Below are positions 10,637-41,485 of a DNA stretch of 64,000 nt, one piece after another. Positions within the stretch are counted from its first letter, which is position 1. Every line of letters begins with the position of its first letter. The DNA lies in the IMG/VR virus record IMGVR_UViG_3300024268_000043, positions 13,665 to 77,664 of that record; one strand, given 5' to 3'. The translations under genes were made by a program, and so were the position numbers. The stretch comes from a virus (lineage: Duplodnaviria > Heunggongvirae > Uroviricota > Caudoviricetes). The notes under the pieces are model-generated. The model made no database searches. It was not told the DNA's origin and saw only the letters and a list, made by a program, of their open reading frames with translations.

Positions 10637-11437
10637 TTAAATAGTCTCCTTGTCTCCACTTCTTATTCCATATCGTTCGAACAGCTCTCGTTGTGGTGCA
10701 AAATCACCATAATACTTTGCTTCTGCATTTAGACGAGCCATTATTGCATCGTTCTTATCTACATATCGTCCCAGCCAATGTATCTGTTTATCAATATGAA
10801 TTGATGCTATCCAATTGTTATTACTCTTATCCCAATATACACCAGTAAACCCGCTTGTATTATCTTTTCTTTTTGTATGATTTCTTGCGTTTTCTGATTG
10901 TGTGGCTGGTCGCAAATTGTTCCTTCGGTTGTTTAACGTGTTCCTATCAATATGATCGCATAATTCATATCCAGTCAACACATACCACATCGAAACATAT
11001 CTTTTTTCGGTTTTATCCCACGCTTCAAGCATTCGATATCCATTTTGATGTATATGTTCATACCAACAATAGTTATCTATAAGAAGATCCTTATCTTCTT
11101 TGTCAAAATAGAATTCTGAATTAGTATTTAATGTTAATCCAACATAATATTCATCCTTTATATCTACCGGATTTGTTTTATTATTGTTTTTGCCTATATC
11201 TCTTGTTTTTTCTCTTCTAATACACCCACACGAATTTGTATGCCCGTTTCTTAAATGTTGACCCGTCGAAATCACATAATCAGAATTACCGCACGAACAT
11301 TTACACTTCCATTGCGGCGTGCGTGTTTGAGTATTTGGATTAATATAATCCTCCGCTCTCTCAACTATTGTCAATCTACTATTTGGAACTCCGTGTTCCG
11401 ACATAACCCAACCTGTCATATCTATGAACTTTCTCAT
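10637..11437 (-). CDS. HNH homing endonuclease with AP2 DNA-binding domain
   Basis: Cys cluster (CKCSCGN...CGC), HNH_3-like DHIDRN...N...NL, AP2-like C-terminus; paralog of 40685..41485; its stop overlaps the ligA start. Confidence 0.7.
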   Translation of the reverse strand: MRKFIDMTGWVMSEHGVPNSRLTIVERAEDYINPNTQTRTPQWKCKCSCGNSDYVISTGQHLRNGHTNSCGCIRREKTRDIGKNNNKTNPVDIKDEYYVGLTLNTNSEFYFDKEDKDLLIDNYCWYEHIHQNGYRMLEAWDKTEKRYVSMWYVLTGYELCDHIDRNTLNNRRNNLRPATQSENARNHTKRKDNTSGFTGVYWDKSNNNWIASIHIDKQIHWLGRYVDKNDAIMARLNAEAKYYGDFAPQRELFERYGIRSGDKETI

Positions 11438-13395
11438 TGTATTTCTCCAAGCATATTTAAAAATGTTAGTTCATCAATAATCGGCACATTCAGTTCTACT
11501 GCTTTCTTGTATTTACTACTACCGCTTGCTTCATTAGTGATAAGGTAGTCAGTGTTCTTACTAACTGAACCAGCAGACTTTGCACCGAGTTCTGCAATCT
11601 TTTCGTTGATACTATCTCTCGTGAAGTGATTGAGCTTGCCAGTCACGCAAAGCGTTTTGCCACTAAACGGATTATCCACCACTACCTTACTTTCACGCTT
11701 TACAAAACGCATCTCTGAAGCGAGAAGGTTAATCTCATCAAAATTATCAGTTAAGTACTTAGTGATATTTTGAGAGGTCTTATCTCCGATATCCTCTAAT
11801 TCGGACCAATCAAATCCACTATTAAAAGCACTAAGCAGTTTATCAAAATCACCTTCAAAAGCGTCAGAAATGGTCTTGGACGCAGACTTACCTACACCAT
11901 CAATTGAGAGAGCGCAAATAAAGTTTTCGAGCCTTACATCTCTACTGCTCTCAATTGCGTCAAGTATTTTTTCTACGGATTTTTCTCCGTATCCACTTGT
12001 AAGCTTCCATCTATAAACAACCCCTGGTGCAATTTCAAGTTTATATAAATCACAGAACGACTTAATCCAACCCTTGTCAATTAAAAACTCCAATGTTGCC
12101 TCACTCAATCCGTCAATGTTCATTGCGGGCTTGGATACAAAGAACTTCAATCTACCCAATAATTTGCCTGAACAGTTGGGATTTGTACACATCAATACTT
12201 CGGATGAATTCTCGGTCACTACTTCGGTTTCACCTCCGCAAACTGGGCAGTACTTAGGGATTTTTATATCAGAATCACCATCCTGAATGCGAGAATCTAT
12301 CTGCGGAATTATTTGGTTTGCTTTATATACTCTTACGGTGCAATTATTGGTGAGTCCCAACTTCTTGATAATAGAAATGTTATGAAGCGAGGCCTTACTG
12401 ACATCTGTTCCGTCAATGTTGACAGTTTCAAAAATTGCAGTAGGAGTAAGAGTATTGGTCTTGCCCATTGTCCATTCGATGTCAAGCAGCTTGGTCTCAT
12501 AGAGTTCGTCGTAGAACTTAAATGCGTAGGCTGCTCGGCTATGATGACCTGTTGTTCCAAGCGATTCTCCGTATGTAATATCGTTAAATCTACCAACTAA
12601 TCCGTCTATTGGATATCCATATACCTCAGCCTGTTCTACTAAAAACTCTTTTGCATCCCAATCAAAGCTGCTTGTCCAGGGTGTTACCGTAAAACCAAGA
12701 TTGTCCATTGCCACCAAATTATCAATTACTGTGTTGTGTGGGCCTTTAATAACGTTCCACAATACAAACTTAAGCTTACGATTGACACATTCTCGAGAAT
12801 CCAATAGCCTAATGGAACCCGATGCAAAATTGCGAGGATTCGCGTACTCTGTTTTAAACTCTTCAAAATCTGCTTTGGTGCAAATAATCTCTCCGTCTAC
12901 AATGAGCTCGTCTGTATAATTAATCTTTTTGGGAATGTTTTTTACAACCAAGGAATTATGCAGAATGTCTTCGCCTTCTTCTCCGTTACCACGAGTCTCA
13001 GCAGAGACAAGTTTACCGTCAACATATCGCAAGGAGCAGGTCAATCCATCGAGCTTGATCATTCCAACAACATCTTTGCTTCCAAAATATCGCACAAATT
13101 CATTCCAGTCCTTTGTCTTGTCAAGCGATAACATAGGGTGGTTGTGTTTAACCTTCTGCAACTCATTCACGACAGTATAGTTTACTTTCTGGGTGGGCGA
13201 GTTGGACAAAATGTATCCATAATTATGTTCAAGTGCCGCTAGTTCAAAATACATATCATCCCACTGCTTGTCGCTAATTTCTGGTATACCATTGTCGTAA
13301 AGTTCTGTGTGTCTGTTGAGTTCTGCGACCAAATACTCAATTCTTGCTTTTGCATCAAATGTCTCCATTTTCTCCTTAACCTCCGTTATACTCAC
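11434..13395 (-). CDS. ligA: NAD+-dependent DNA ligase
   Basis: 653 aa; adenylation motif MIKLDG (KxDG); zinc finger CPVCG...C; C-terminal HhH/BRCT-like region. Confidence 0.9.
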   Translation of the reverse strand: MSITEVKEKMETFDAKARIEYLVAELNRHTELYDNGIPEISDKQWDDMYFELAALEHNYGYILSNSPTQKVNYTVVNELQKVKHNHPMLSLDKTKDWNEFVRYFGSKDVVGMIKLDGLTCSLRYVDGKLVSAETRGNGEEGEDILHNSLVVKNIPKKINYTDELIVDGEIICTKADFEEFKTEYANPRNFASGSIRLLDSRECVNRKLKFVLWNVIKGPHNTVIDNLVAMDNLGFTVTPWTSSFDWDAKEFLVEQAEVYGYPIDGLVGRFNDITYGESLGTTGHHSRAAYAFKFYDELYETKLLDIEWTMGKTNTLTPTAIFETVNIDGTDVSKASLHNISIIKKLGLTNNCTVRVYKANQIIPQIDSRIQDGDSDIKIPKYCPVCGGETEVVTENSSEVLMCTNPNCSGKLLGRLKFFVSKPAMNIDGLSEATLEFLIDKGWIKSFCDLYKLEIAPGVVYRWKLTSGYGEKSVEKILDAIESSRDVRLENFICALSIDGVGKSASKTISDAFEGDFDKLLSAFNSGFDWSELEDIGDKTSQNITKYLTDNFDEINLLASEMRFVKRESKVVVDNPFSGKTLCVTGKLNHFTRDSINEKIAELGAKSAGSVSKNTDYLITNEASGSSKYKKAVELNVPIIDELTFLNMLGEIQ

Positions 13396-16926: not shown

Positions 16927-17762
16927 TTGTTAATCTCCAATTCTTTTGTTATACCAATTTTAATAGTGTTATATGTTACTTCTTCAAAAAGTTTATATAT
17001 AGTTTCATCTACGGTATTATCGCAAGTCTTCAGATAACTCTCATACATCTCCTGAATAAAGTCCATTGAGCCTTTGCCATATCGTCTCGCATCCTCAAGA
17101 TTGTATTTGCCCTTCTTGACATCAACAAGCCACTCGGGTTCAACGGAGATTAAGCAACACTCGAAAGACTCTCCATTTATCCATCTATACATAAACTCTT
17201 TGATTCTAAAGAGATGGTGCAGTTGTTTGCAATCATAGCCCCATTTTTCAATGACATGCATTCTAGAGGGATACTTATGTTCGAGAGCATGATACTTCTC
17301 ACTTGCAATTCCTTTCATTGATTTAATAAGGGAAGGCAAATTCATTTTTACGATAGAATCTCTTGCCTTAACAAGCTTATTCCATTCCTCTTCATAGATA
17401 GGGTTGATAATATAATATTTCGTATAGAGAATTTCAAGGAAGTTGAGATTAGATTTTCTGAAGGTTTCCAACATCACTCTAATATCTTTAAAGTCAATGT
17501 GTTCATCATTCTCTCTTACATAGGTAGTGCTAGCCATCTTGCTTTCTGCAAGTTCTTTAAGAGACGGTGCCAATACGCATTTGGTATCAACGTCTGAGCC
17601 TTCATAATCGAGACAATAGTTGCCAGACCCTTGGTAGTACACACCTATAATTCTATGTTCAGGATACTGTGTGAGAGCATCGTTGTAATGCTCCCACATT
17701 TTATTCATTATCCATTCATCGGTATGAAAATTCATTTTACTCTCCTCAATTTCCAATCTCAA
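16923..17762 (-). CDS. Pol-beta superfamily nucleotidyltransferase (second copy)
   Basis: GVYYQGSGNY...DYEGSDVDTKCV = GS...DxD motif. Confidence 0.5.
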   Translation of the reverse strand: MRLEIEESKMNFHTDEWIMNKMWEHYNDALTQYPEHRIIGVYYQGSGNYCLDYEGSDVDTKCVLAPSLKELAESKMASTTYVRENDEHIDFKDIRVMLETFRKSNLNFLEILYTKYYIINPIYEEEWNKLVKARDSIVKMNLPSLIKSMKGIASEKYHALEHKYPSRMHVIEKWGYDCKQLHHLFRIKEFMYRWINGESFECCLISVEPEWLVDVKKGKYNLEDARRYGKGSMDFIQEMYESYLKTCDNTVDETIYKLFEEVTYNTIKIGITKELEINK

Positions 17763-18750
17763 TAAGATACTTAATTGTCATCTGCTCTTCCTTATAAACA
17801 ACAATTTCATCGTTTCTTAGCATACCTCTGTCGGCGTGTGCGTGTAGGCAATTTGCCCCAGACTTAAACTGCTGAAGTTTGTTATAATCAAGGTTATAGT
17901 ACTTGCTATCAAAATTGTACACGTCATAAGGCGTTCCATAGGCTACATCGAAAATTGCCATATAAGCAGTGTTGTTACCGCCGTGAGCCCAATAAGAACC
18001 AGAAAGTGAGGTATAACCAATGCTCTTTGCGCACTTGGGAGCATAATATACCCCGTATCCAAACATCTTTCCGGTGATGACGGCATTAGTAGGTCTAAGC
18101 ACCAAGCCGGTCTTCATAATGGACCAGAAGTTTTCCGATCTACTACCGTGGAACAGCAACCTCGTATCCTTAATACCATTCTCCTTAACAAACTTGTCGA
18201 AACGTTCTTGCGTCTTCAGATTGGTAACTCTCCAAGCCTTTCTAAACTTATCAGCAGAATCATTCATTAATGTTTTAATGAGTGCAACATCATCTCTAGT
18301 AGTCTCTTCCATTACAAGGCCGAGTTCCTCAAGAATAGTCTGTTGCTTCTTTTCGGTCATGACTGTGGGTTCAATCTCCGGCTTCACATAAATCTGTCCA
18401 CGCATTACATCAAGAAGATCCTGCTCTTTGGTGATGATTTTCGCAAAGTCATCGGGTTTATTTGCTAAGTAATCTCGCACATCGCCCATCTTTCGAGGAA
18501 TAACTGTAAACAACCTAAGCAGATTCGCGTTGAACTCATCAGTGGTAGAGCTATTATTGGCAAGTTCATCAATGATTTTCTGTGCCGCATCAACCATATC
18601 CTGGGTAACGGCAGATGCCTTGACTGTATAGTTCTTACGAATTGTATCACGAGCGAGACTCTGTAACTTTTCAACAATCAGTCTTACGGCTTCATTCTCA
18701 ATTTCTCTATAGGGACTTTCGGGATTGGTAGAGGAAATCTCCTCCACCAA
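17746..18750 (-). CDS. PARP-like ADP-ribosyltransferase catalytic domain protein
   Basis: LLFHGSRSENFWSIMKTGL...GKMFGYGVYYA...EIVVY reproduces the PARP H-G-S / Y / E signature blocks; helical regulatory-like N-terminal region; track start is a TTG. Confidence 0.7.
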   Translation of the reverse strand: MVEEISSTNPESPYREIENEAVRLIVEKLQSLARDTIRKNYTVKASAVTQDMVDAAQKIIDELANNSSTTDEFNANLLRLFTVIPRKMGDVRDYLANKPDDFAKIITKEQDLLDVMRGQIYVKPEIEPTVMTEKKQQTILEELGLVMEETTRDDVALIKTLMNDSADKFRKAWRVTNLKTQERFDKFVKENGIKDTRLLFHGSRSENFWSIMKTGLVLRPTNAVITGKMFGYGVYYAPKCAKSIGYTSLSGSYWAHGGNNTAYMAIFDVAYGTPYDVYNFDSKYYNLDYNKLQQFKSGANCLHAHADRGMLRNDEIVVYKEEQMTIKYLIEIGN

Positions 18751-23559: not shown

Positions 23560-23560
23560 A

Positions 23561-24240: not shown

Positions 24241-24242
24241 TT

Positions 24243-24333: not shown

Positions 24334-24339
24334 TATATA

Positions 24340-25358: not shown

Positions 25359-25399
25359 TTTCTCAAACCTCTTTCATAATATTTTAATTCTTTTATTTT

Positions 25400-25473: not shown

Positions 25474-25476
25474 TAT

Positions 25477-25551: not shown

Positions 25552-25557
25552 TATAAT

Positions 25558-27265: not shown

Positions 27266-27269
27266 CCAA

Positions 27270-28095: not shown

Positions 28096-28100
28096 TAAAA

Positions 28101-29753
28101 TTAATTATTTGAATCAATTGCGTTCCACTGGTCAATCATCGCCTTAGCGAATACGGCTTCTTTACCAGTCCATCCGTACATTATGTTGGTACGATACGCA
28201 TATTCGGGTAGAACCGCGTTGTCATAACCTGCAGTCTGCACAGAGAACACATTCACTTTAGGATTAACCTTCTTACGGTACTCCTGTACGAGCTTGAACA
28301 CATTGATATAAGAGCCATCTACAAACCAACCACGTCCACAGCCATATCCACGATTCTGATATTCCGTCTTATGTCTGTCGGTGCCATAGAGACCACCGTG
28401 ACCAGCCTGCTGATCGGAATAAATAAAGATATTATCCCAGTGTTCCTTGTTGGCAATGGCGTCTCTGAAGAACTCCCAAATACCACCCTCGGTAGCACCA
28501 CCTACATCACTATATCTATTTCTGGTAATCTCCTGTGCCTGAGAGAGAACGCCCTTACGCTTACTGATAGGACTTACGATAAGCTTGTCGCCAAACTTGC
28601 CTACATATCCTTCGTCAGAACAAGCAGCAGTAATTACAGAAGAAAGATTATCAATGTCTGCCACAGTAACAGTGCCATACTCAGAATTAAGAGCACCCCA
28701 AGCCGAACCAGAATTATCTGACAAGCACATAGTCTTGCCGGAAAGCTTAGGATAATTTTCAAGTGAAATATCCATGCACTCCTCAAGAGCATCAATAATT
28801 AAAGGCTGATGATTGCATTTGCTCGTTCTAATAGCTTGAATAGCAGAGTAATAACGGAACGGAAACTGCTTGCCGTCAACTACACCACTCTTAAGCTTCT
28901 CAAGATACTTCTTGCAAAACTCACTATCCTCTATTTCGGTAAACACTCCTCTGATGTTGCGGAGAAGTGCCATATGACCCATATCAACGGTGTCGAAAAT
29001 TTCCTTCCAAGACTTGCCCTCGGAACGAAGGTTTTCCCAAGTCTTCTCGTCTTCTTTAACTTCGACGGTGCCGGTAGTCATAAGTTCATCAATAACCTTA
29101 GAGTTAGCGTGGCAGAGACGAACTCCGTTAATCATACCAATCTCGTGATTCTTATACTTAGCAACCTTATAACGAGAGAGTTTACTAAGGTTCTTTGCCC
29201 AAGAACGCTTGATAATAGAAGGGATGTTGTTCTTCTTACCCTTATTAAGATACAGATAATAAGCCATCTGAGACATAGGTTCATCTGCTCTCTTCATAAC
29301 TTGCTGATTATACTCATCAAATTTACCAGGATTATCGTCGGTCCATTCTTTACGCTTAGGATGAGTAGCAGCTCTTACCATAATAACCTGAGGGTTAAGT
29401 CTCATCATATAGTCACTACGAAGAGTCGTTGCCCACTCAAGAGTTGCACCAAAATCATAATCAAGTGCCGCGTCGATGGATTCTTCCATAATAGTTTCAG
29501 TATCTTTGCCTTCATAACACTTAGGAATAACACTAAACTCTTTAACAAGGGCATCAACAACATATGCCTTTCTCGACTTAGATCCTCTGTAATACGACGG
29601 CTCTCCAAAGATTGAAGACGCACTAATCATCTTAAGAGTATCAAGAGGATTAATCTTATAGGAATCTCCTCCCATAAAGTTAGTGACCGTTTCGTCAAGT
29701 CTAAGATTGTTTCTCTGATTCATTTCAGAGACTGCTTTAGAAATCTTGCTCAT
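28101..29753 (-). CDS. rsr: Ro60/TROVE-domain protein (Rsr-like) with C-terminal vWA domain
   Basis: 550 aa, the size of bacterial Rsr; C-terminal vWA MIDAS motif CLSDNSGSAWG (DxSGS); adjacent to the tRNA-like Y-RNA-like array, as in bacterial rsr-yrl loci. Confidence 0.55.
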   Translation of the reverse strand: MSKISKAVSEMNQRNNLRLDETVTNFMGGDSYKINPLDTLKMISASSIFGEPSYYRGSKSRKAYVVDALVKEFSVIPKCYEGKDTETIMEESIDAALDYDFGATLEWATTLRSDYMMRLNPQVIMVRAATHPKRKEWTDDNPGKFDEYNQQVMKRADEPMSQMAYYLYLNKGKKNNIPSIIKRSWAKNLSKLSRYKVAKYKNHEIGMINGVRLCHANSKVIDELMTTGTVEVKEDEKTWENLRSEGKSWKEIFDTVDMGHMALLRNIRGVFTEIEDSEFCKKYLEKLKSGVVDGKQFPFRYYSAIQAIRTSKCNHQPLIIDALEECMDISLENYPKLSGKTMCLSDNSGSAWGALNSEYGTVTVADIDNLSSVITAACSDEGYVGKFGDKLIVSPISKRKGVLSQAQEITRNRYSDVGGATEGGIWEFFRDAIANKEHWDNIFIYSDQQAGHGGLYGTDRHKTEYQNRGYGCGRGWFVDGSYINVFKLVQEYRKKVNPKVNVFSVQTAGYDNAVLPEYAYRTNIMYGWTGKEAVFAKAMIDQWNAIDSNN

Positions 29754-29777
29754 TTGTTTTCTCCTTATATAAAATTA

Positions 29778-30002
29778 TTACTGTAGCAATTTTTCGAAGT
29801 TGGTAATAATCTTCTCGTTGCCTACCTTTAGTTCATCCAAAGAAGAATTTGTGCTTTGAATGGCAGCAATCATTGCATCATTCTTAGATCTCTCATCGTC
29901 TATGGCTTTGTTGGTGTTCTTAAGCCCCTCAATAGTCGTAAGAACGAGGCTGATGGCATTCTTGGATTTCTCGGTGAGTACCTGTAAGGTTGTCTTTTTC
30001 AT
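29778..30002 (-). CDS. hypothetical coiled-coil protein
   Basis: ORF with leader motif and AAGGAGAA RBS. Confidence 0.35.
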   Translation of the reverse strand: MKKTTLQVLTEKSKNAISLVLTTIEGLKNTNKAIDDERSKNDAMIAAIQSTNSSLDELKVGNEKIITNFEKLLQ

Positions 30003-30038
30003 TTGTTTTCTTCTCCTTTAATCATTTTGTTTTGTTAG

Positions 30039-30113
30039 TGGAGCGGGATAAGGGATTCGAACCCTCACTACCAGTTCGGAGGACTGGGGTGCTAGCCGTT
30101 ACACTAATCCCGC
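30039..30113 (-). tRNA. tRNA-Gly (anticodon UCC)
   Basis: Acceptor GCGGGAT/ATCCCGC, D-arm GTGTAACGGCTAGCAC, anticodon arm CCAGT-CCTCCGA-ACTGG (C at position 33 is unusual), T-arm GAGGGTTCGAATCCCTT, discriminator U, CCA encoded. Confidence 0.65.
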
Positions 30114-30283
30114 ATTCGATGAGCAATCTTTAAAACCTACTGCAATAGGAAACTCAACTGCTCGGAGTTTTTGGATGAAAGGAGGTGTTTTCGTGATAAC
30201 AAATCACATATTTCTAAGTCTCATAAAGGGTGGTGCGGGAAACCGGGGTCGAACCGGCACGGGCATAATGCCCACGGGATTTT

Positions 30284-31255
30284 CTTCCCACTCTATGTCG
30301 CCATAGCCGATTTCTCGTTGTGGGCTGGACTATGTCTTAACCATATCTTGCGACTTAGGTTGACTCCGTATAGTCTCTACGCATTTTATCAATAAACAAT
30401 CTACTAATTAGGAAGGAATTGCACTTGCCATCCTTTGCAGTTTCACTCTGCCTATAGCCGACTTACCGTTATTGACGTTATAGATTGTTTATTTAATTTA
30501 GTACGGCGTTCTCAGAATCTTCGCCGTTTAGAAGCCATTCACTCAAGAGGTTTCCCTCCTGGTGCTCCTGCATAAGATGTACTATGTTGTACTTAAAAAT
30601 AAGCTCCCTTGCTCGGCGATAATTATCGCCTTTTGGAGTTAGCCCTAACCTTCTCAGAGCTTGTCTGATATTAGGACTGTTCCTCAATACCTCCGCAAAA
30701 TCATCGTCCGACACCTTAACAACCCCATTGTTGATGTTCTTGCCACGATAATTTTTTGTAAGAGCATGACAGTTTGGACATAATAATTTCAAATTTTCCA
30801 TTTCATTATTCAAAGAATCACCATCTTCGTGATGTACTTCCAATGGTATTGGTTGATTCAACCACTCTTCTTTGTTACATCGTTCGCAGCGATGTCCTCT
30901 AACATAAGACAAAGCTGCTACAGCCTGAGATGTTTTAATTACAACTCCTTGACGAAATCGTGTGTAATCAAAATTGTTTTTATTCCAGGCCTGGTTTTTA
31001 AAGTGAGACACATCTAGATCAAGCTCTTCAATCATAGATTTAAGAGTAGTCAAACAACTGCCACTCGTTGTTAAATATCCCAACTTCTCTGCCAGCGATG
31101 CAAATCCGTCACTGTCTTGTACAAACTTTTCAATCTCTTGCCGAGTAAAATTTCTCCACTTTGCTATCTTCATAATACCCTCTCCAATATAAATTGAAGA
31201 GTAATTTTTCAGGTATCTTTTGTGGAATCTTTTAGAGAAAAATCACCTTCTGATA
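30284..31255 (-). mobile_element. group I intron (about 972 nt) in the tRNA-Leu(UAA) anticodon loop, carrying an HNH homing-endonuclease ORF
   Basis: Bounded by the tRNA exons above; 5' exon terminal U / intron terminal G; a GACTA-containing segment in the about 200-nt region downstream of the ORF, consistent with a P7/G-binding core; encloses ORF 30493..31173. Confidence 0.65.
30493..31173 (-). CDS. intron-encoded HNH homing endonuclease
   Basis: HHEDGDSLNNEMENLKLLCPNCH = HNH motif with zinc-ligand Cys pairs (CERCNK...CPNCH); lies wholly inside the tRNA-Leu intron. Confidence 0.7.
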   Translation of the reverse strand: MKIAKWRNFTRQEIEKFVQDSDGFASLAEKLGYLTTSGSCLTTLKSMIEELDLDVSHFKNQAWNKNNFDYTRFRQGVVIKTSQAVAALSYVRGHRCERCNKEEWLNQPIPLEVHHEDGDSLNNEMENLKLLCPNCHALTKNYRGKNINNGVVKVSDDDFAEVLRNSPNIRQALRRLGLTPKGDNYRRARELIFKYNIVHLMQEHQEGNLLSEWLLNGEDSENAVLN

Positions 31256-31293
31256 AAGTCCCGGGCGTCTGCCTATTCCGCCATTCCCGCATA

Positions 31294-31377
31294 TGGTGCA
31301 CCAAAAAGGACTTGAACCTTCACGTCGATGACACTAGATCCTAAGTCTAGCGCGTCTGCCAATTCCGCCATTGGTGC
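31294..31377 (-). tRNA. tRNA-Leu (anticodon UAG), type II
   Basis: Acceptor GCACCAA/TTGGTGC, Leu-type D-arm GCGGAATTGGCAGACGC, anticodon arm CTAGA-CTTAGGA-TCTAG, long variable arm, T-arm GAAGGTTCAAGTCCTTT, CCA encoded. Confidence 0.7.
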
Positions 31378-31434: not shown

Positions 31435-31463
31435 ATTATAGCACAAACTTTTCAGTTTGTCAA
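31435..31463 (-). promoter_or_regulatory. sigma70 consensus promoter (TTGACA-17-TATAAT) driving the tRNA-Leu/tRNA-Gly operon
   Basis: Minus-strand TTGACAAACTGAAAAGTTTGTGCTATAAT; TTGTAAAC direct repeat upstream; ACAAAATGATTG leader about 11 nt downstream of -10. Confidence 0.6.
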
Positions 31464-32678: not shown

Positions 32679-32707
32679 ATTATATCATAATCATTTTGTT
32701 TTGTCAA
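32679..32707 (-). promoter_or_regulatory. sigma70 consensus promoter (TTGACA-17-TATAAT)
   Basis: Minus-strand TTGACAAAACAAAATGATTATGATATAAT (leader motif inside the spacer); TTGTAAAC repeat upstream. Confidence 0.55.
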
Positions 32708-32967: not shown

Positions 32968-32996
32968 ATTATAGCACAATCATTCTGTATTGTCAA
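32968..32996 (-). promoter_or_regulatory. sigma70 consensus promoter (TTGACA-17-TATAAT)
   Basis: Minus-strand TTGACAATACAGAATGATTGTGCTATAAT; TTGTAAAT repeat upstream. Confidence 0.55.
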
Positions 32997-33044: not shown

Positions 33045-33566
33045 TTATATAACTTCAATTTGACACATTTTCATAGCTTCAAGAGCGTTCTTGTGACTCT
33101 CGGGCGTAACACCGGCACAACAAGAACTGTCTATGATGATAGGAGTCTCGGGGAAGTGTGCCTTAAGCATCATTGCGTTACTAATAACGCAGATGTCCGT
33201 GCATAAGCCGACAAGTTCTATACTATCAATTCGGTTGCGAAAATTACTGTGGATATATGTAGGAAGCCATGTGCTACCAAATGTAGGCTTATCAACTACC
33301 GTACAACCCTGTCTATAAAGACCGGCTGCAATTTCCCAACCGTGTGTGCCATTAATGCAATGAGGTACGGGCAACTTTTTACCTTCCTGAGTTTCAAGAT
33401 AGTTATCATAATGGGTGTCTCTGGTATAAATTACCACATCAGAAGAAGAATTAGAATATTCTTCTATCTTATACTTTACATTAGGCACTATTGCCTGGGC
33501 TTCGGGAGTGCCAAGAGCATCCGAAATAAAATCATTCTGCATATCTACTACTACAAGTAACTTCAT
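33045..33566 (-). CDS. pncA: nicotinamidase / isochorismatase-family hydrolase (PncA-like)
   Basis: VVDMQNDF N-terminal motif and GLCTDICV catalytic-Cys motif of cysteine hydrolases; adjacent to pncB. Confidence 0.6.
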   Translation of the reverse strand: MKLLVVVDMQNDFISDALGTPEAQAIVPNVKYKIEEYSNSSSDVVIYTRDTHYDNYLETQEGKKLPVPHCINGTHGWEIAAGLYRQGCTVVDKPTFGSTWLPTYIHSNFRNRIDSIELVGLCTDICVISNAMMLKAHFPETPIIIDSSCCAGVTPESHKNALEAMKMCQIEVI

Positions 33567-33568
33567 AA

Positions 33569-34798
33569 TTAAATTCCTTCCTTTATTCTATAATCTACTG
33601 CGTTCTTAAGATATTCAAGATAACTGCCATCCTGACACATTGCTTTGCCAGGAGTATCGCTCAACTTTGCTACAGGATGGCCATTGACATACTGCAATTT
33701 AATGACAATATTAAGAGGATCTGCGTAAGTATCATTGCTAAGGAAAGTGCCGATACCAAAACTAACATTAATACGGTCTTTGAAATAGTCATTAATGCGC
33801 TGAGCACGGTCAAAATCAAGACCATCGCTAAACAAAAGTGTTTTTGTTTTGGGGTCAATACCAAGCTTCTCGTAATGAGCAATTATCTTGTCGCCCCACT
33901 CATAAGGGTCACCCGAGTCGTGCCTTACTCCCGTGTAGCAAAGTGCCTGAAGTTTATTGAAGTCACGAAGGAATAAGTCAGTGCCGAGAGTATCTGTAAG
34001 TGCTGTACCAAGATCACCCTGATATTCATCAAACCATTCCTCAAGAGCCATCTTATTGGTGTATGCGAGCTGAACTCCGGGAACGCCCTGGAACATTTGT
34101 ACATATTCATGAGCATAAGTACCAATAGGCTTCACTCTATACTTCATCGCAAGATACACATTAGATGTACCAACACAATGTTCATCTCTGATGAGATCGC
34201 TTACAACATAATCCTGCCACTCACGACTCAAACGACGTCTGCAACCAAATTCTGCAAACTTAAAATCATACTCCTGTGAACGGAATCCATTCATCTTTGC
34301 CACAAGTTTCTCTTTTGCACTCTCTACAAGAGAAAAGCGATCATACTTCGTGCGAAAATAAACTTCATTAACTATTTCAAGGAGATAAATCTCAAACTGC
34401 ATTACAGAGAAGAGCGGACCATCTACATAGAGAACCATACCACCAGAGGCGATATTCTCTTCGTCCTCGTAAAGATAGTAAGTATCTGCTTTGAAACAAT
34501 GTACATAGCGACGGAGGGGTCTCCAAAGACGAAGAAACTCAACATAGTCTGGCTTGATAAAGCGGAGAGACTTGAGATAATCAAGCTCTTCATCGGTAAA
34601 AGTCAACGTGCAAAGATGATCTATTTGGGCATTGATTTCGTCTATCATTTCATCGGTAAATATGACACCCTCATTTCTACACTTGAATATATACACACCA
34701 TTAAGATTAGTGTGTTTATGAAACATAACCTGATTCATTGAAAATTTGTACAAATCTGTATCTGTTAAATTCGTAATTATGGGACTAAGTTTCATCAT
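33569..34798 (-). CDS. pncB: nicotinate phosphoribosyltransferase (PncB-like type II PRTase)
   Basis: N-terminus TDLYKFSMNQVMFHKHTNLNGVYIFKCR parallels the E. coli PncB N-terminus; about 400 aa; flanked by pncA and nadE, which fits the deamido route. Confidence 0.6.
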   Translation of the reverse strand: MMKLSPIITNLTDTDLYKFSMNQVMFHKHTNLNGVYIFKCRNEGVIFTDEMIDEINAQIDHLCTLTFTDEELDYLKSLRFIKPDYVEFLRLWRPLRRYVHCFKADTYYLYEDEENIASGGMVLYVDGPLFSVMQFEIYLLEIVNEVYFRTKYDRFSLVESAKEKLVAKMNGFRSQEYDFKFAEFGCRRRLSREWQDYVVSDLIRDEHCVGTSNVYLAMKYRVKPIGTYAHEYVQMFQGVPGVQLAYTNKMALEEWFDEYQGDLGTALTDTLGTDLFLRDFNKLQALCYTGVRHDSGDPYEWGDKIIAHYEKLGIDPKTKTLLFSDGLDFDRAQRINDYFKDRINVSFGIGTFLSNDTYADPLNIVIKLQYVNGHPVAKLSDTPGKAMCQDGSYLEYLKNAVDYRIKEGI

Positions 34799-35340
34799 TT
34801 CTTTTTACCTTCTTTCAAAGTTTCTTTTAATTCCTTAAATGTTTTATCTACGCCAACCGCCACAATATGTACAAGCCAATATTCTAACTTTTCTCGTGTT
34901 TCTAAATGGAACTGATTTTCATCATAATGTGTTCCATAATAGTCCAAAGCAGACTTATCTGTAAACTTGTCGCCCAAATAAATCATTGATGCCGCAACTC
35001 TATCACAGAGCATTTCGGCAAGATATTTCGGTGGCATATCAATAGCAGTAGTTTTGCCATCTCTACCGATATCCTGCCAGTACTCGGCATGGTGCTTGTT
35101 TCTGTTATGATGATGTATCCACGCTTTGCTATAACCATACTTTTCACGTTCTCCTATATGCGGAGACTTTGTGCCCGTATAGAACTTCACTCCGTTCCAA
35201 AACTCTGTAGGTGAATATTTGGATAGATCGTGTGTTAGTCCCTGCCAATAGAGTCCACACTTGAAGCAGAGTTTACGCACCATTGCTCGATGTCGATGGA
35301 CGGTGCGAAGATGACCAAAGAATCGTTTAAATAAATTCAT
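34795..35340 (-). CDS. conserved hypothetical protein (His-rich)
   Basis: Start moved to the internal Met directly after the upstream stop; the first 58 codons of the track ORF overlap nadE out of frame. Confidence 0.4.
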   Translation of the reverse strand: MNLFKRFFGHLRTVHRHRAMVRKLCFKCGLYWQGLTHDLSKYSPTEFWNGVKFYTGTKSPHIGEREKYGYSKAWIHHHNRNKHHAEYWQDIGRDGKTTAIDMPPKYLAEMLCDRVAASMIYLGDKFTDKSALDYYGTHYDENQFHLETREKLEYWLVHIVAVGVDKTFKELKETLKEGKKK

Positions 35341-35341
35341 A

Positions 35342-36112
35342 TCATTCTCCTTTTTTAAACATAGGCATAGGACAATATTTGTGACGAGTGGCCTTGTGTA
35401 GTCGTTCAATCTTCTTGATGGTATCCCAACTAGTCTTACAATCCTTACCATTAAGAAGATAATCGTCTTCTTCTTCGTAAGTAAAGCCAAGCTTCTCTTC
35501 ATCTGATTTTCCACTCATACCATCTTCAGGTATTTTATATACCCACTCAGGCTTCAATACACCCTCATCTACATATTCCTGTCCAACAACAAGAAGCTCA
35601 CGAACCGTGAGGTCGCCAATGGGAGAAAAATCACCAGCAGCATCGCCATATTTGGTGGAATAACCAACATAATCTTCGCTGCGGTTGCAAGTATTTACTA
35701 CGCGGGAACCAGGGTAGAATGCGGCGACCGCATAAAGAGTGGTCATACGAAGGCGAGCCGGAGTATTTGTGGTAAACATATCGTTATTCCATACTGTTCC
35801 AAGTGGTTGTTCATCTTTTCTACAAATCGCATTAGCGACCTCCATTGAAAGAGCGTTGTAGGCGTTTCCTATATTGATATAGTGATGCTCAATGCCAAGT
35901 GCTTGACATATAGCAACAGAGTCCGCAAGGTCTATTTGACTTCCGTTAGGCATCATTATACCAACTACACGATCTGAACCAAGCGCTTCTACACAAAGTG
36001 CAGCAGTAATTGTACTGTCCTTGCCACCACTCATTCCTATTACGGCAACGCCATTATCATTGTCACGGAACTGGTCTCTTATAAACTCAACAATTTCACT
36101 TCTTATTGACAT
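35342..36112 (-). CDS. nadE: NH3-dependent NAD+ synthetase
   Basis: PP-loop VIGMSGGKDSTITAAL (SGGxDS). Confidence 0.85.
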   Translation of the reverse strand: MSIRSEIVEFIRDQFRDNDNGVAVIGMSGGKDSTITAALCVEALGSDRVVGIMMPNGSQIDLADSVAICQALGIEHHYINIGNAYNALSMEVANAICRKDEQPLGTVWNNDMFTTNTPARLRMTTLYAVAAFYPGSRVVNTCNRSEDYVGYSTKYGDAAGDFSPIGDLTVRELLVVGQEYVDEGVLKPEWVYKIPEDGMSGKSDEEKLGFTYEEEDDYLLNGKDCKTSWDTIKKIERLHKATRHKYCPMPMFKKGE

Positions 36113-36668
36113 CTTTTATTACCTCTTTCATAAATTCTACTTTATCTCTTATTCCATATGGAATGTACATTCTTATTACCATTTCATCGCCGGCGAGTAT
36201 ACCTTCACGAATTTCTGTTGCCGAAATAGGTATTATTGTTCTCGGAACCTTTACAACAGAAACATCAAGGTTGTCATACCAATGAGCTCGCTCCTCTTCT
36301 TCTCCCTCATAAATAACATCGGGCATTTCTCCGGTTGCCGACCACACCTTGTCGAGTAAATAATCGCCCCAAGAAGCATCATTACTAGGATGTTCTCTAT
36401 CCGGAATGGGAACAACGTGGAGGATATGATTTTTACGACTACAAAATGTCTCGACAATCCATCGACTTCTTGTGGCGAAGTCAAAGGGATTTCTCTGTGT
36501 ACCACTCTCTTGGGCCGAGCCAACTCCTACGATCACTACTTCGCATTCATCAAACATCTTGCTGATTATGCTCGTGTGTCCAATGTGCAAAGGCTGGAAG
36601 CGACCGACATATAAACCACACTTATACTTCTTCATCTTTCTGCTCCTTCTCGGATAACTCTTTTTCAA
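36096..36668 (-). CDS. nadM: nicotinamide/nicotinate mononucleotide adenylyltransferase (archaeal/NadM type)
   Basis: GRFQPLHIGH = (H/T)xGH nucleotidyltransferase motif as in NadM-type NMNATs; the start may be the internal MKKYKCGLY. Confidence 0.7.
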   Translation of the reverse strand: MKKSYPRRSRKMKKYKCGLYVGRFQPLHIGHTSIISKMFDECEVVIVGVGSAQESGTQRNPFDFATRSRWIVETFCSRKNHILHVVPIPDREHPSNDASWGDYLLDKVWSATGEMPDVIYEGEEEERAHWYDNLDVSVVKVPRTIIPISATEIREGILAGDEMVIRMYIPYGIRDKVEFMKEVIKDVNKK

Positions 36669-36799
36669 GTTCTTTCTTTTCGTGCTGCCGTACTCTCTTG
36701 GAGGACAACCTACGATTAAACTTACTGCCCCACCAAAAAGGCATCCATCCGGTTTCTGATACCTTCTTCTTATCTTTGTTTTTCATTGATGCTCTCCAA

Positions 36800-37252
36800 T
36801 CAATAATGAATCGAATTACGAATTCTACATGTTGCATCACTCACAAGGTGTTCAGATGCTTGATAATAATAACTTGTTAACGCACTGCCCAACTGCTGAC
36901 ACATCAACTCCACCAACACCTTAGGCATTAATTCAACTATAATTTTGCTCAATTCTTCATCTGTTATTTGACTGAAAATTTTATCAACAAGAGGAGATGT
37001 AAGGTTTCGTATTTCAAGAATCAATTCATCATTAACGTGACGTCGAGTTGCATCATTCAACTCACCAGTCCAACGATTAGCGACCAGATGAGATTCTACG
37101 CAATCTTCAACTTCGTCTTGGATTTTCCTATCAATTTTTGAATTAATGTCGTAGATTTTACTTAAATCCATCTCATTGATTTTTTCATGGATCTGCTGAT
37201 TGATTGCGTCATAATCAATTTTATTGAGGTCTAATTCGATTTCAAGTTTCAT
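36800..37252 (-). CDS. hypothetical protein
   Basis: Start moved to MKLEIE, which has GGAGA RBS spacing and follows the leader motif; own promoter. Confidence 0.4.
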   Translation of the reverse strand: MKLEIELDLNKIDYDAINQQIHEKINEMDLSKIYDINSKIDRKIQDEVEDCVESHLVANRWTGELNDATRRHVNDELILEIRNLTSPLVDKIFSQITDEELSKIIVELMPKVLVELMCQQLGSALTSYYYQASEHLVSDATCRIRNSIHY

Positions 37253-37285: not shown

Positions 37286-37313
37286 ATTATACTCACATTT
37301 TTCCAATTGTCAA
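37286..37313 (-). promoter_or_regulatory. sigma70 consensus promoter (TTGACA-16-TATAAT)
   Basis: Minus-strand TTGACAATTGGAAAAATGTGAGTATAAT; TTGTAAAC repeat upstream. Confidence 0.55.
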
Positions 37314-40400: not shown

Positions 40401-40688
40401 AACTTCTTTTTCATCTCTGCCTAAGTTGCTTTCATACCATTCGTCTGGAATTTCTGGATATTCATACAACTTCTCCGTAAGATAACACTCGACTCCGTGC
40501 AGATATTTAATGCCTTGCTCTTTGCAATACATCTTCTTCTCAATCCAGTTATAACAATTGCCGTGCTCGCTGAAGCAAATAGCAGTCTGACCAAGCTCTT
40601 TTGCTTTGTCCACATATAATTTAAAACTTGTACACGAGTCAAGCAAACTCAACTCTGTATGCAAATGGTATGTAACATAATTACTCAT
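37479..40688 (-). CDS. dnaE: DNA polymerase III alpha subunit
   Basis: 1069 aa; N-terminal PHP domain (HLHTELSLLDS...FSEHG), polymerase core, C-terminal OB-like region. Confidence 0.9.
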   Translation of the reverse strand: MSNYVTYHLHTELSLLDSCTSFKLYVDKAKELGQTAICFSEHGNCYNWIEKKMYCKEQGIKYLHGVECYLTEKLYEYPEIPDEWYESNLGRDEKEVQAELDAMLEEGKKKIRDNYHTILVAKNYAGFQELNTLVDLSTQDDHFYYKPRLTFDEFKNISNNIIKISACLASPLNKLRDEGLIKYYDYLEIQPHINSQDQKEYNQWLYQMSVKHNKPLIAGTDTHNLDKYKAECRSILQRAKHIVFTNEDEFDLTYKSYDELVEMFDKQGALPSKVYLTAIENTNVMAASVEEFELDTSFKYPKLYEDEERVFKQRINQMYKDKLKKGIIQNNPRYVEQIREEMRVFKKIGMVGFMLFMSELICWCWDNGIPIGPCRGSVGGSVIAYITDIIDVDPIVWNTVFSRFCNEHRTEIGDIDVDIAPTQRHLVYEHIIDKFGSDKTAYILAIGTISDKGTIDEIGRALASKWDEEYNNGNNPYVNTLYDNHTGGANPYSLDNIARIKKEYEENPDATRQKYPDIFYYFDGLVNTAISQSMHPAGIVVAPLTLPDNYGTFWQDGKRIMMINMEEIHEVSLVKYDLLGLKNVEIIKDTCKLAGIPYPKSHTINWEDQSVWADMITAPAGIFQFEGDYAFKMLKEFVPHKINDMSMVNAALRPSGASYRDRLLAHEVNKNPSEIIDELLKDNLGFLIYQEDTIAFLQNICGLSGGDADNVRRAIGRKQKDRLEAAMPEILEGYCKMSPKPRDVAEQEAKEFLQIIEDSSNYQFGFNHSTGYSMIGYLCAYMRYYYPEEFIAAYLNNANNEDDIRYGTELARVKNIKIHPIKFRHSGANYTVDKETHSLYKGCSSVKFLSADMAEQLYAMKDRHFDSFTDLLSVFPGNSKQLSILIKLNYFSEFGGSLRLLKIAELYDTYNGKKILKKEKLGLPIDIVTKYANSETEKQYRFEPESMMAMLTELCDMVPNQELDVMAQIEAQKEFLGYIDLVDPTKPTKAIILEINTKYTPKLSLYRLYDGQTVSVKLKKKDYENNPVASGMIINYRTTKKPAWKKDEKGEWVQDYSREDIWLASYTIE

Positions 40689-41485
40689 TCTTTCACCCCA
40701 TAATCATTTTGTGTTGTTATGCCGTATTCATCGAACAGATGTCTTTGTGGTGCAAAATCTCTGCCGAAATATTTAAGTTCTGCTTCTAATCTTGCCACAA
40801 CAGCATCATTTAAATCATTATATAACCCTAAGTCAATTTGTTTATAATCAACTATGATATAACTACGCCATCTTTGACGATTTTTGTTCCAGCTCACACC
40901 TGTAAAACCAGATGTGTTAGTGTTATATTTTGAATGATTTCTTCTGTTTTCTGTTTTTGATACTGCTCTTAAATTACAATCTCTATTATCTAATGGATTT
41001 CGGTTTATATGATCGTAATCTTTATATCCCAATAAGTCCGTCATTTTAATCATTCGATGTCTATCTTTGCTCCAAGCAAACAAACTTACATATCCATCTT
41101 TTTGCTTTCTTTCACACCAACAATAGTCCTTAATTTCATCATATCGACATAAATCAAAATAAAATTCGTTATTCGTATTGGATGTAAATCCAATGCCATA
41201 TTCGCCAGATAAGTCGTATGTATTACTCTTTATTTGTGCTTTTGCCGCCTTTTCTTTCTGTATGCACCCACACGACCTTGTAGGTGATTTTTTACTTGTC
41301 AAAGATGTTCCAACTATAATTTTACGTGTTTTATTGTCACAACTACATTCGCATAACCACTGAGCACTACGCTGACCACTCGGACGAATATAGTCCTCTG
41401 CGCGGCTTAACACGGTCAATCTGCCAAACACTCGACCTGTTAAATCTTCTTTAACTTTAACCATCCATCTCACCTCTCTAATCAT
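40685..41485 (-). CDS. HNH homing endonuclease with AP2 domain (paralog of 10637..11437)
   Basis: Same architecture and clear sequence similarity to the ligA-adjacent copy; its stop overlaps the dnaE start. Confidence 0.7.
   Translation of the reverse strand: MIREVRWMVKVKEDLTGRVFGRLTVLSRAEDYIRPSGQRSAQWLCECSCDNKTRKIIVGTSLTSKKSPTRSCGCIQKEKAAKAQIKSNTYDLSGEYGIGFTSNTNNEFYFDLCRYDEIKDYCWCERKQKDGYVSLFAWSKDRHRMIKMTDLLGYKDYDHINRNPLDNRDCNLRAVSKTENRRNHSKYNTNTSGFTGVSWNKNRQRWRSYIIVDYKQIDLGLYNDLNDAVVARLEAELKYFGRDFAPQRHLFDEYGITTQNDYGVKE

What the first reader, a model, noticed from the sequence alone, without database searches (positions are those of the whole stretch)
33045..36668. Complete Preiss-Handler NAD+ salvage route encoded by the phage (PncA-PncB-NadE-NadM)
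Four adjacent genes are assigned from motifs: nicotinamidase (VVDMQNDF / Cys hydrolase), nicotinate phosphoribosyltransferase (PncB-like N-terminus), NH3-dependent NAD synthetase (SGGxDS) and an archaeal-type NMN/NaMN adenylyltransferase (GRFQPLHIGH). Together they would convert nicotinamide, the product of NAD+-cleaving defence effectors (SIR2/TIR/DSR-type), back to NAD+. Phage NAD+-reconstitution pathways have been described that use Nampt+Nmnat, or ADPR-pyrophosphokinase plus a transferase. A deamido, four-enzyme route appears to be a distinct solution. The window also encodes other NAD+ consumers: NAD-dependent LigA, the PARP-like protein and two macro domains.
Basis: partly seen in the sequence, partly recalled or inferred. 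Interest (0 to 1): 0.75.

Follow-up and report, generated by a model that had tools for sequence, protein, structure and literature searches.

The report
Phage nicotinamide-to-NAD salvage operon
A roughly 170-kb gut or rumen phage carries one tightly packed operon with all four enzymes needed to turn nicotinamide back into NAD+, plus an uncharacterised fifth gene; the enzyme calls hold up, but such clusters are common in large phages and have already been catalogued from sequence.

Summary
On the minus strand, 33045-36635 holds PncA (nicotinamidase), PncB (nicotinate phosphoribosyltransferase, clearly not Nampt), single-domain NH3-type NadE and a NadM/archaeal-type adenylyltransferase.

It lies between PncB and NadE and overlaps the PncB start by 4 nt.
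- All five genes, plus two small upstream ORFs, lie between two perfect sigma-70 promoters, so they form one transcription unit.
- The same enzyme set recurs in many gene orders. In a PncB-seeded sample of IMG/VR contigs, 37 of 80 loci have PncA, PncB, an adenylyltransferase and NadE. NadD-type and NadM-type adenylyltransferases replace each other between loci.
- That swap, and a rough NadE tree, favour the classical order NaMN -> NaAD -> NAD. The Francisella order via NMN is not excluded.

The novelty claim is overstated. "NAD-jumbo phages" with pncB-nadD-nadE clusters were described in silico in 2024. A counter-defence role is plausible but untested, since only NARP1-3 are experimentally established.

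DUF5662 is the one new lead. It has an invariant His/Asp signature and is weakly HD-like. In close relatives it stays next to PncA and PncB.

The parts
37286..37313 (-). Perfect sigma-70-type promoter (TTGACA-N16-TATAAT) that probably drives the operon
   Evidence: The window holds 8 perfect matches, all on the coding strand, against 0.06 expected by chance.
36800..37252 (-). orf150, first gene of the unit, function unknown
   Evidence: JGI gene call. The only Pfam hit is a sub-threshold EAD9 match, E 0.0096. It is absent at the corresponding position in relative L010.
36622..36786 (-). orf54, a small Lys/Glu-rich ORF of unknown function
   Evidence: JGI gene call mapped from L001; sequence read.
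36096..36635 (-). NadM/archaeal-type nicotinate/nicotinamide mononucleotide adenylyltransferase (179 aa)
35342..36112 (-). Single-domain (NH3-type) NAD synthetase NadE (256 aa); its start overlaps the NadM stop by 17 nt
   Evidence: PF02540, E 6e-43. TIGR00552 scores 140 bits against a cutoff of 63.65. PDB hits are NH3-dependent NadEs: 3FIU at 9e-25 and 2E18 at 1.2e-24. SGGKDS lies at residues 28-33.
34795..35340 (-).
33569..34798 (-). Nicotinate phosphoribosyltransferase PncB (409 aa)
   Evidence: PF17767 + PF04095. TIGR01514 scores 415.8 bits (cutoff 269.55) and NF003704 scores 483.6 bits (cutoff 379). 1YIR matches at 1.9e-92, and no Nampt appears among the PDB hits.
33045..33566 (-). Nicotinamidase PncA (173 aa), 2 nt downstream of PncB
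   Evidence: PF00857, E 1.5e-28. The best PDB hit is 1IM5, the P. horikoshii nicotinamidase. D8, D50, H52, H69 and C126 align with its catalytic and metal residues. K93 is the likely catalytic Lys, but the alignment is ambiguous there.
32968..32996 (-). Next perfect sigma-70 promoter; it marks the downstream end of the NAD unit
11434..13395 (-). Context: NAD-dependent DNA ligase, a phage NAD consumer that releases NMN
   Evidence: PF01653, PF03120 and BRCT domains.
17746..18750 (-). Context: PARP-catalytic-domain protein, a phage NAD consumer that releases nicotinamide
   Evidence: PF00644, E 3.6e-23.

Best explanation
The seven ORFs between the promoters at 37313 and 32996 form one operon read by the host sigma-70-type RNA polymerase. 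Five of them make a self-sufficient deamidating nicotinamide-to-NAD+ route.

1. PncA hydrolyses nicotinamide to nicotinate.
2. PncB condenses nicotinate with PRPP, driven by ATP, to give NaMN.
3. The NadM-type enzyme adenylylates NaMN to NaAD.
4. The single-domain NadE amidates NaAD with ammonia to give NAD+.

The operon keeps NAD+ available in the infected cell. It recycles nicotinamide released by any NAD-cleaving enzyme, whether a host defence NADase or the phage's own PARP-like protein, and so supplies the phage's NAD-dependent ligase.

DUF5662 is co-translated with PncB. I infer that it is a metal-dependent hydrolase acting as an accessory to the first half of the route; its substrate is unknown.

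Shown: the family identity and catalytic motifs of the four enzymes, the operon architecture, and recurrence across phages. Inferred: the substrate order of the last two steps, expression, and the physiological role.
For: - Enzyme identities.
- Tight packing: genes overlap or are separated by 2 nt or less. The unit is bracketed by perfect promoters, with 8 in the window against 0.06 expected.
- Recurrence: PncA + PncB + adenylyltransferase + NadE occur within a few kb in 37 of 80 PncB-seeded IMG/VR loci, in many different gene orders. The same set appears in unrelated large phages, namely a 117-kb human faecal phage, a 735-kb megaphage and Atu_ph07.
- Classical order: homologous clusters carry either a NadD-type enzyme (L164, TIGR00482 at 102.6 bits) or a NadM-type enzyme. 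In a rough NJ tree, NadEs partnered with NadD and with NadM interleave, and the Francisella NMN synthetase falls outside the clade.
- Archaeal NadM is a bifunctional NMN/NaMN enzyme that works with a conventional NAD synthetase (PMC3376133).
- Phage NAD consumers are encoded in the same window.
Against: - Neither PncA nor the NadM-like protein reaches an NCBIfam equivalog cutoff. PRK11609 scores 30 bits against 174, TIGR01527 scores 61 against 181, and NF002243 scores 65 against 127.
- The best single PDB hit of NadE is the Francisella NMN synthetase 3FIU, although it is tied with P. horikoshii NadE.
- No PRPP synthetase was found among the window ORFs scanned, so PRPP must come from the host.
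- The host, the timing of expression and all enzyme activities are unknown.
- DUF5662 has no assigned function and is absent from most of the more distant clusters, occurring in only 18 of 80.
Confidence: 0.72

Rival explanations
1. Counter-defence reading. The operon was selected mainly as an NAD+ reconstitution pathway, a deamidated NARP, that rebuilds NAD+ from the nicotinamide released by SIR2, TIR, DSR or aRES-type NADases and so rescues phage replication. This overlaps with the best explanation and differs only in what drives selection.
For: - PncA is part of the conserved core. PncA-DUF5662-PncB occurs alone in 11 loci, which means the entry substrate is nicotinamide, the NADase product, rather than dietary nicotinate.
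- Relatives place a microbial PARG-type macro domain directly upstream of PncA (L164).
- Accessory hydrolases in NAD-reconstitution operons have a precedent in the macro-domain phosphatase of the extended NARP1.
- NARP1-3 show that phages do use NAD rebuilding against NADase defences.
Against: - There is no experimental test of any deamidated phage route.
- The route needs four steps, several ATP and host PRPP, so it is slow and costly in an NAD- and ATP-depleted cell.
- The host and its defence repertoire are unknown.
- The phage encodes its own NAD consumers, which explain the module equally well.
Confidence: 0.35
2. Francisella-type order. PncA and PncB make NaMN. NadE then acts as an NMN synthetase (NaMN -> NMN), and the NadM-type enzyme adenylylates NMN to NAD+.
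For: - There is no NadD in the cluster, and NadM-family enzymes use NMN well (PMC3376133).
- The top PDB hit of the phage NadE is F. tularensis NadE 3FIU.
- The top hits of the NadM-like protein are NMN adenylyltransferases.
Against: - 3FIU (90.7 bits) is statistically tied with the conventional P. horikoshii NadE 2E18 (90.2 bits).
- NadEs from homologous phage clusters pair with NadD-type enzymes, which implies NaAD amidation. These NadEs interleave with NadM-partnered ones, and FtNadE lies outside the phage clade.
- M. jannaschii pairs NadM with a conventional NAD synthetase that has no NMN synthetase activity.
Confidence: 0.15
3. The cluster is not a functional pathway. The isochorismatase-family and cytidylyltransferase-family proteins would have other substrates, or the region would be bacterial DNA mis-binned as phage.
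For: - PncA and NadM do not reach the NCBIfam equivalog cutoffs.
- Some database "phage" PncB hits are really bacterial contigs, such as Acinetobacter phage MD-2021a.
Against: - The nicotinamidase-specific metal site and the catalytic residues are present.
- The NadM fold and motifs are specific.
- The same four functions co-occur repeatedly.
- The exact locus lies on ~170-kb contigs recovered from several samples, between DNA polymerase III alpha, RecJ, homing endonucleases and a tRNA array.
Confidence: 0.04

Closest known systems
Preiss-Handler gene clusters of "NAD-jumbo phages" (Microbiome 2024, PMC11662467)
   Same: Large gut and rumen phages carry clustered pncB and nadE together with an NaMN adenylyltransferase, alongside NAD-consuming enzymes such as LigA and ADP-ribosyltransferases. 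The cluster is interpreted as phage-autonomous NAD+ synthesis.
   Different: - The published example is pncB-nadD-nadE. Here the adenylyltransferase is NadM-type.
- Here pncA is part of the operon, so the route starts from nicotinamide.
- Here a DUF5662 gene is embedded in the cluster.
- The genome is about 170 kb, below the 200-kb jumbo threshold.
- Both descriptions are purely in silico.
NARP2 (Nampt + Nmnat; Osterman et al. 2024) and the Vibrio phage KVP40 NadV/NatV pathway
   Same: Both are phage-encoded routes that start from nicotinamide and PRPP and end in NAD+. The final adenylyltransferase belongs to the same nucleotidyltransferase superfamily.
   Different: NARP2 is an amidated two-step route through NMN. 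Here the phosphoribosyltransferase is a bona fide PncB rather than a Nampt, so a nicotinamidase and an NAD synthetase are also required, making four steps. NARP2 is experimentally validated as an anti-defence system; this route is not.
NARP1 (Adps + Namat) and its extension with a macro-domain phosphatase; NARP3 (PnuC + NadR)
   Same: All are phage operons devoted to restoring NAD+. The extended NARP1 sets a precedent for an accessory hydrolase inside such an operon.
   Different: None of the operon's seven ORFs is a PRPS-like Adps, a PnuC transporter or an NadR with a kinase domain. The substrates also differ: ADPR or nicotinamide riboside there, nicotinamide here.
Bacterial and archaeal pyridine nucleotide cycle: PncA-PncB-NadD-NadE, archaeal NadM + NadE, and the Francisella NadE*/NadM variant
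   Same: The four enzyme families and the chemistry are the same. The NadM + single-domain NadE pairing is the archaeal and Acinetobacter solution.
   Different: Here all four genes are fused into one phage operon. The PncB is of the ~400-aa proteobacterial/yeast type (TIGR01514), even though the phage probably infects a Firmicute. That host assignment is inferred from the promoters, the lysis genes and the distribution of DUF5662.

Membership tests
Nicotinate phosphoribosyltransferase PncB (TIGR01514 / NF003704) | Full-length match above the curated equivalog or subfamily cutoff | tested here: met
   TIGR01514 scores 415.8 bits (cutoff 269.55) and NF003704 scores 483.6 bits (cutoff 379), covering residues 2-404.
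Nicotinate phosphoribosyltransferase PncB (TIGR01514 / NF003704) | Closer to NAPRTases than to Nampt or Namat | tested here: met
   All six PDB hits at E<1e-5 are NAPRTases, the best being 1YIR at 1.9e-92. The PHROG "nicotinamide PRTase" family scores only 80 bits.
Nicotinate phosphoribosyltransferase PncB (TIGR01514 / NF003704) | Nicotinate (not nicotinamide) specificity and ATP-coupled catalysis | not testable with these tools
   The GTYAHE motif at residues 226-231 is present. From my own recollection, this motif holds the His that is autophosphorylated in enteric PncB. Enzyme activity was not measured.
Nicotinamidase PncA (isochorismatase-like cysteine hydrolase) | Isochorismatase fold with an Asp-Lys-Cys triad | tested here: met
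   PF00857, E 1.5e-28. D8 and C126 align with D10 and C133 of 1IM5. K93 in VVDKPTF is the likely catalytic Lys, but HMMER places the 1IM5 Lys in an insertion, so this residue is ambiguous.
Nicotinamidase PncA (isochorismatase-like cysteine hydrolase) | Nicotinamidase-type metal site (Asp, His, His) | tested here: met
   D50, H52 and H69 align with D52, H54 and H71 of 1IM5.
Nicotinamidase PncA (isochorismatase-like cysteine hydrolase) | NCBIfam PncA equivalog (NF008623) above its cutoff | tested here: not met
   The score is 30.3 bits against a cutoff of 174, and only residues 3-55 match. The protein is a short, divergent family member. Its assignment rests on the catalytic and metal-site motifs, the best PDB hit and its adjacency to PncB.
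NH3-dependent NAD synthetase NadE | NAD_synthase domain above its cutoff, with the SGGxDS P-loop | tested here: met
   TIGR00552 scores 140 bits (cutoff 63.65) and PF02540 has E 6e-43. SGGKDS lies at residues 28-33.
NH3-dependent NAD synthetase NadE | No glutaminase (nitrilase-like) domain or subunit | tested here: met
   The protein is 256 aa with a single domain. No CN-hydrolase hit was found in the operon.
NH3-dependent NAD synthetase NadE | Prefers NaAD over NaMN (NAD synthetase versus NMN synthetase) | tested here: inconclusive
   3FIU (an NMN synthetase) and 2E18 (an NAD synthetase) score equally. The partner swap between NadD and NadM and the NJ tree favour an NAD synthetase. Kinetics are needed to decide.
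NadM / archaeal-type NMN(NaMN) adenylyltransferase | HxGH and ISxTxxR nucleotidyltransferase motifs | tested here: met
   HIGH lies at residues 17-20 within GRFQPLHIGH, and ISATEIR lies at 137-143.
NadM / archaeal-type NMN(NaMN) adenylyltransferase | Closer in sequence and fold to NadM/NadR NMNATs than to PPAT, NadD or cytidylyltransferases | tested here: met
NadM / archaeal-type NMN(NaMN) adenylyltransferase | NCBIfam equivalog or subfamily cutoff | tested here: not met
   TIGR01527 scores 61.3 bits (cutoff 181.2), NF002243 scores 64.9 (cutoff 127), and NF010365 scores 39.9 (cutoff 198). The protein belongs to a phage-specific clade of only 245 database relatives.
Experimentally defined phage NAD+ reconstitution pathways (NARP1, NARP2, NARP3) | Signature gene pairs: Adps + Namat, Nampt + Nmnat, or PnuC + NadR | tested here: not met
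   The operon has no PRPS-like gene, no Nampt, no PnuC and no NadR kinase domain. The route would work towards the same end but is not a member of NARP1, NARP2 or NARP3.
Experimentally defined phage NAD+ reconstitution pathways (NARP1, NARP2, NARP3) | Restores NAD+ and phage growth in the presence of an NADase defence | not testable with these tools
   This requires infection assays.
HD-domain metal-dependent phosphohydrolases (candidate family for DUF5662) | H...HD...D metal-ligand signature | tested here: inconclusive
   H17, H37-D38, H77, H83-H84 and D113 are invariant in 158 homologues, which is compatible with a dinuclear HD-type site. No Pfam HD hit appears even at E<=0.5.
HD-domain metal-dependent phosphohydrolases (candidate family for DUF5662) | HD fold | tested here: inconclusive

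The most novel reading that the evidence does not exclude
The module is a fourth, deamidating type of phage NAD+ reconstitution pathway that defeats NADase-based immunity. In this reading DUF5662 is a previously unrecognised enzymatic component: a dinuclear-metal, HD-like hydrolase that processes an NAD-breakdown or signalling product (ADPR, ADPR-1''-phosphate, a cADPR isomer or a related nucleotide) and so feeds or protects the PncA/PncB half of the route.
Probability: 0.15. Interest if true: 0.7.

Novelty: new member of a known kind. Interest (0 to 1): 0.4.

Why it matters
NAD+ is a central battleground between bacteria and phages, and three phage NAD+-rebuilding pathways have been demonstrated since 2024. 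The deamidating four-enzyme route seen here is widespread in large-phage contigs. At least 555 PncB-encoding stretches occur in IMG/VR, and 37 of the 80 loci sampled carry the full set. It has never been tested experimentally.

If it restores NAD+ in cells under NADase attack, it would add a common, ammonia- and PRPP-dependent counter-defence. It would also explain why many gut and rumen phages carry a nicotinamidase.

The window offers a compact single-promoter cassette of about 4.3 kb that could be cloned directly for that test. It also links DUF5662, a family with no literature, to NAD salvage and gives that family a first testable context.

Tried and rejected
- A megablast of the cluster against 50,697 phage records found nothing, so no isolate-level relative is known.
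- The best tblastn PncB hits labelled "Acinetobacter phage MD-2021a" are bacterial chromosome contigs carrying ribH, nusB, thiL and phoBR, so I discarded them.
- Nampt and Namat identities for 33569-34798 are rejected on NCBIfam cutoffs and PDB hits.
- I tested whether DUF5662 is linked to NAD genes in bacteria. None of 80 genome loci has PncA, PncB, NadE or NadM within 6 kb. The commonest neighbour families occur in at most 12 of 80 loci; I did not run them through any family search, and by eye some look like EF-P, an Xaa-Pro peptidase and Dtd. The linkage is therefore phage-specific and could partly reflect shared ancestry.
- In a wider PncB-seeded sample only 18 of 80 loci carry DUF5662. 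It is an accessory gene, not a universal component.
- Foldseek against PDB gave no significant match for DUF5662. The afdb50 library was unavailable. Sequence search against PDB found nothing, and there is no literature on DUF5662.
- The paper on Francisella NMN synthetase specificity determinants (PMC2651253) is not held. I therefore could not do a residue-level discrimination between NAD synthetase and NMN synthetase, and used partner genes and a rough NJ tree without bootstrap instead.
- The macro-domain claim could only be confirmed at sub-threshold level.
- An Rfam scan of the window found only tRNAs.

Full report
OBSERVATION

The interval 33045-36668 lies in a region where all long ORFs are on the minus strand. 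It contains five tightly packed genes, not four. In the direction of transcription they are:

1. A NadM-like adenylyltransferase, 36635-36096.
2. NadE, 36112-35342. Its start overlaps the NadM stop by 17 nt.
3. A DUF5662 protein, 35340-34795.
4. PncB, 34798-33569. Its start overlaps the DUF5662 stop by 4 nt.
5. PncA, 33566-33045, which begins 2 nt after PncB.

Three things support ATG 36635 instead: the JGI gene call, the N-termini of 33 homologues, and an AAGGAG motif upstream of that ATG.

ENZYME IDENTITIES

PncB. It scores 415.8 bits on the equivalog TIGR01514 (cutoff 269.55) and 483.6 bits on NF003704 (cutoff 379), over its full length. All six PDB matches are nicotinate phosphoribosyltransferases, the best being P. 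aeruginosa 1YIR at 1.9e-92. A NARP1-type Namat is equally unlikely.

NadE. It passes TIGR00552 with 140 bits against a cutoff of 63.65, carries SGGKDS, and is a single 256-aa domain with no glutaminase.

PncA. It is a short isochorismatase-family protein (PF00857, E 1.5e-28). Its best solved relative is the P. horikoshii nicotinamidase 1IM5. The catalytic Asp and Cys and the nicotinamidase-type metal ligands D50, H52 and H69 align. It does not reach NCBI's PncA equivalog cutoff.

OPERON

The exact consensus TTGACA-N16-18-TATAAT occurs 8 times in the window, always on the coding strand, against 0.06 expected by chance. One copy lies at 37313-37286, upstream of two small unknown ORFs: orf150 at 37252-36800 and orf54 at 36786-36622. 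The next copy lies at 32996-32968, immediately after PncA. The seven ORFs are therefore most simply read as one unit transcribed by the host RNA polymerase.

SOURCE AND CONTEXT

The identical PncB protein, and with it the whole five-gene cluster at 100% protein identity, lies on ~170-kb metagenomic contigs from several samples. The window also encodes:

- DNA polymerase III alpha, RecJ, a DnaB-like helicase and a primase-like protein
- NrdD and NrdG
- ThyX, dUTPase and an endolysin
- many homing endonucleases and nine tRNAs

This is a large phage. It probably infects an anaerobic Firmicute. That is an inference from the sigma-70 promoters, the SleB-like and Amidase_2-SH3 lysis genes, and the Clostridia-dominated distribution of DUF5662.

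The two "macro domains" reach only E 0.035 and 0.0075.

RECURRENCE ELSEWHERE

- Fifteen IMG/VR loci found with the window PncB all retain PncB. Fourteen of them have DUF5662 within 6 kb, and in ten it lies directly upstream of PncB.
- A profile-based scan found at least 555 PncB-encoding stretches in IMG/VR.
- Of the best 80 (not de-replicated), 37 carry PncA + PncB + an adenylyltransferase + NadE within 8 kb, in many different gene orders. The adenylyltransferase is NadM-type in 23 and NadD-type in 14.
- In a ~155-kb phage group the order is PARG-type macro domain, PncA, DUF5662, PncB, NadD, NadE (L164).
- Unrelated large phages also juxtapose PncA-like, PncB, NadE and an adenylyltransferase. 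These are a 117-kb human faecal phage, a 735-kb megaphage and Agrobacterium phage Atu_ph07.

The four-enzyme set is thus a recurrent phage module, not a chance juxtaposition.

ORDER OF THE LAST TWO STEPS

A NadM + NadE pair without NadD can run in two ways. In M. jannaschii and Acinetobacter it runs as NaMN -> NaAD -> NAD. In Francisella it runs as NaMN -> NMN -> NAD, with NadE acting as an NMN synthetase (PMC3376133).

The phage NadE's top PDB hit is the Francisella enzyme 3FIU at 90.7 bits. It is tied with the conventional P. horikoshii NadE at 90.2 bits.

Two observations favour the classical order:
- Homologous clusters carry NadD in place of NadM.
- In a rough neighbour-joining tree, NadD-partnered and NadM-partnered NadEs interleave, and FtNadE falls outside the main phage clade.

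I put the Francisella order at about 0.15. Only kinetics will settle it.

DUF5662

- The family has no literature and no solved relative.
- Across 158 distinct bacterial and phage homologues, H10, H17, H37-D38, S40, K41, E46, H77, N81, H83-H84, W88, D90, E109 and D113 are conserved in at least 99% of sequences, most in all of them. This pattern is typical of a metal-binding active site.
- Foldseek finds nothing significant, and Pfam HD models do not match.
- In 80 bacterial genomes, mostly Clostridia, the gene is never near NAD genes and has no conserved neighbour.
- Among 80 DUF5662-seeded phage loci, 36 have PncA nearby and 44 do not.
- Among the broader PncB-seeded set it occurs in 18 of 80.

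DUF5662 is therefore an accessory gene. In the window's lineage it stays beside PncA and PncB through several rearrangements. Shared ancestry could explain part of this.

COMPARISON WITH WHAT IS KNOWN

Experimentally established phage NAD+ rebuilding pathways are NARP1 (Adps + Namat), NARP2 (Nampt + Nmnat) and NARP3 (PnuC + NadR). This operon contains none of their signature genes.

A 2024 metagenomic study defined "NAD-jumbo phages". It explicitly reported a pncB-nadD-nadE "Preiss-Handler" gene cluster, noted phage pncA, and linked these genes to phage NAD consumers such as ligases and ADP-ribosyltransferases (PMC11662467). Literature searches found no experimental test of a deamidated phage route.

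The window is therefore a new member of a known, in-silico-described kind. Its variant features are pncA inside the operon, a NadM-type enzyme instead of NadD, and DUF5662.

VERDICT

- The biochemical reading is well supported (confidence about 0.7).
- The counter-defence purpose is plausible but unproven (about 0.35 as the main driver).
- The claim of a distinct, undescribed solution is overstated.
- Interest is moderate at 0.4. Its main value is as a compact, directly clonable cassette for testing a widespread candidate counter-defence, and as a first functional context for DUF5662.

Noticed in passing
window 34795-35340 (-): A DUF5662 gene sits inside the NAD cluster and overlaps the PncB start by 4 nt. 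The family has no literature and an invariant His/Asp signature, and its model is only weakly HD-like. In the window's phage lineage it stays next to PncA and PncB, but in 80 bacterial genomes it is never near NAD genes.
   Followed up: yes
window, minus strand: 10424-10451, 22631-22659, 23532-23560, 31435-31463, 32679-32707, 32968-32996, 37286-37313, 56737-56765: Eight perfect TTGACA-N16-18-TATAAT promoters occur, all on the coding strand, against 0.06 expected by chance. The phage evidently relies on the host's primary sigma factor for many transcription units, which argues for a host that uses sigma-70/sigma-A promoters rather than a Bacteroidota host.
   Followed up: partly
window 28101-29753 (-) and 24164-31377: A TROVE/Ro60-like ORF (PF05731, E 3.4e-5) is embedded in an array of nine tRNA genes. 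An ORF-poor stretch at about 25650-28000 could hold Y-RNA-like non-coding RNAs. Rfam at gathering threshold found only tRNAs.
   Followed up: partly
window 13846-14874, 16054-16926, 19434-20810 (-): An RNA-repair-like gene set (an RlaP nucleotidyltransferase, a kinase + HD Pnkp-like protein and an RNA-ligase-like protein with a PHA02142 OB domain) is interleaved with LigA, the PARP-like gene and two sub-threshold macro-like ORFs (13376-13849, 18976-19401). Together they may form an ADP-ribosylation and RNA-repair island.
   Followed up: no
L164 8463-9245 (also L018, L178, L179, L182): In related ~155-kb phages, a microbial-type PARG macro-domain protein (TIGR02452, 190.8 bits) sits directly upstream of PncA-DUF5662-PncB-NadD-NadE. 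This links the processing of ADP-ribose derivatives to the salvage cluster.
   Followed up: partly
window 214-2160 (-) and 54795-55781 (-): The window encodes both a large serine recombinase and a tyrosine integrase, so the phage may be temperate or may carry integrative or mobile cassettes.
   Followed up: no
window 10637-11437, 14874-16043, 30493-31173, 40685-41485, 41561-42163, 60446-61057 (-): The density of homing-endonuclease-like genes (HNH, LAGLIDADG, GIY-YIG) is unusually high. Several flank replication genes such as DNA polymerase III alpha and LigA.
   Followed up: no
INPHARED records CAKLQH020000008.1 / CAKLQF020000012.1 (L103): Records named "Acinetobacter phage MD-2021a" are ordinary bacterial chromosome contigs carrying ribH, nusB, thiL, phoBR and pncB. 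They would inflate any count of phage-encoded pncB.
   Followed up: yes
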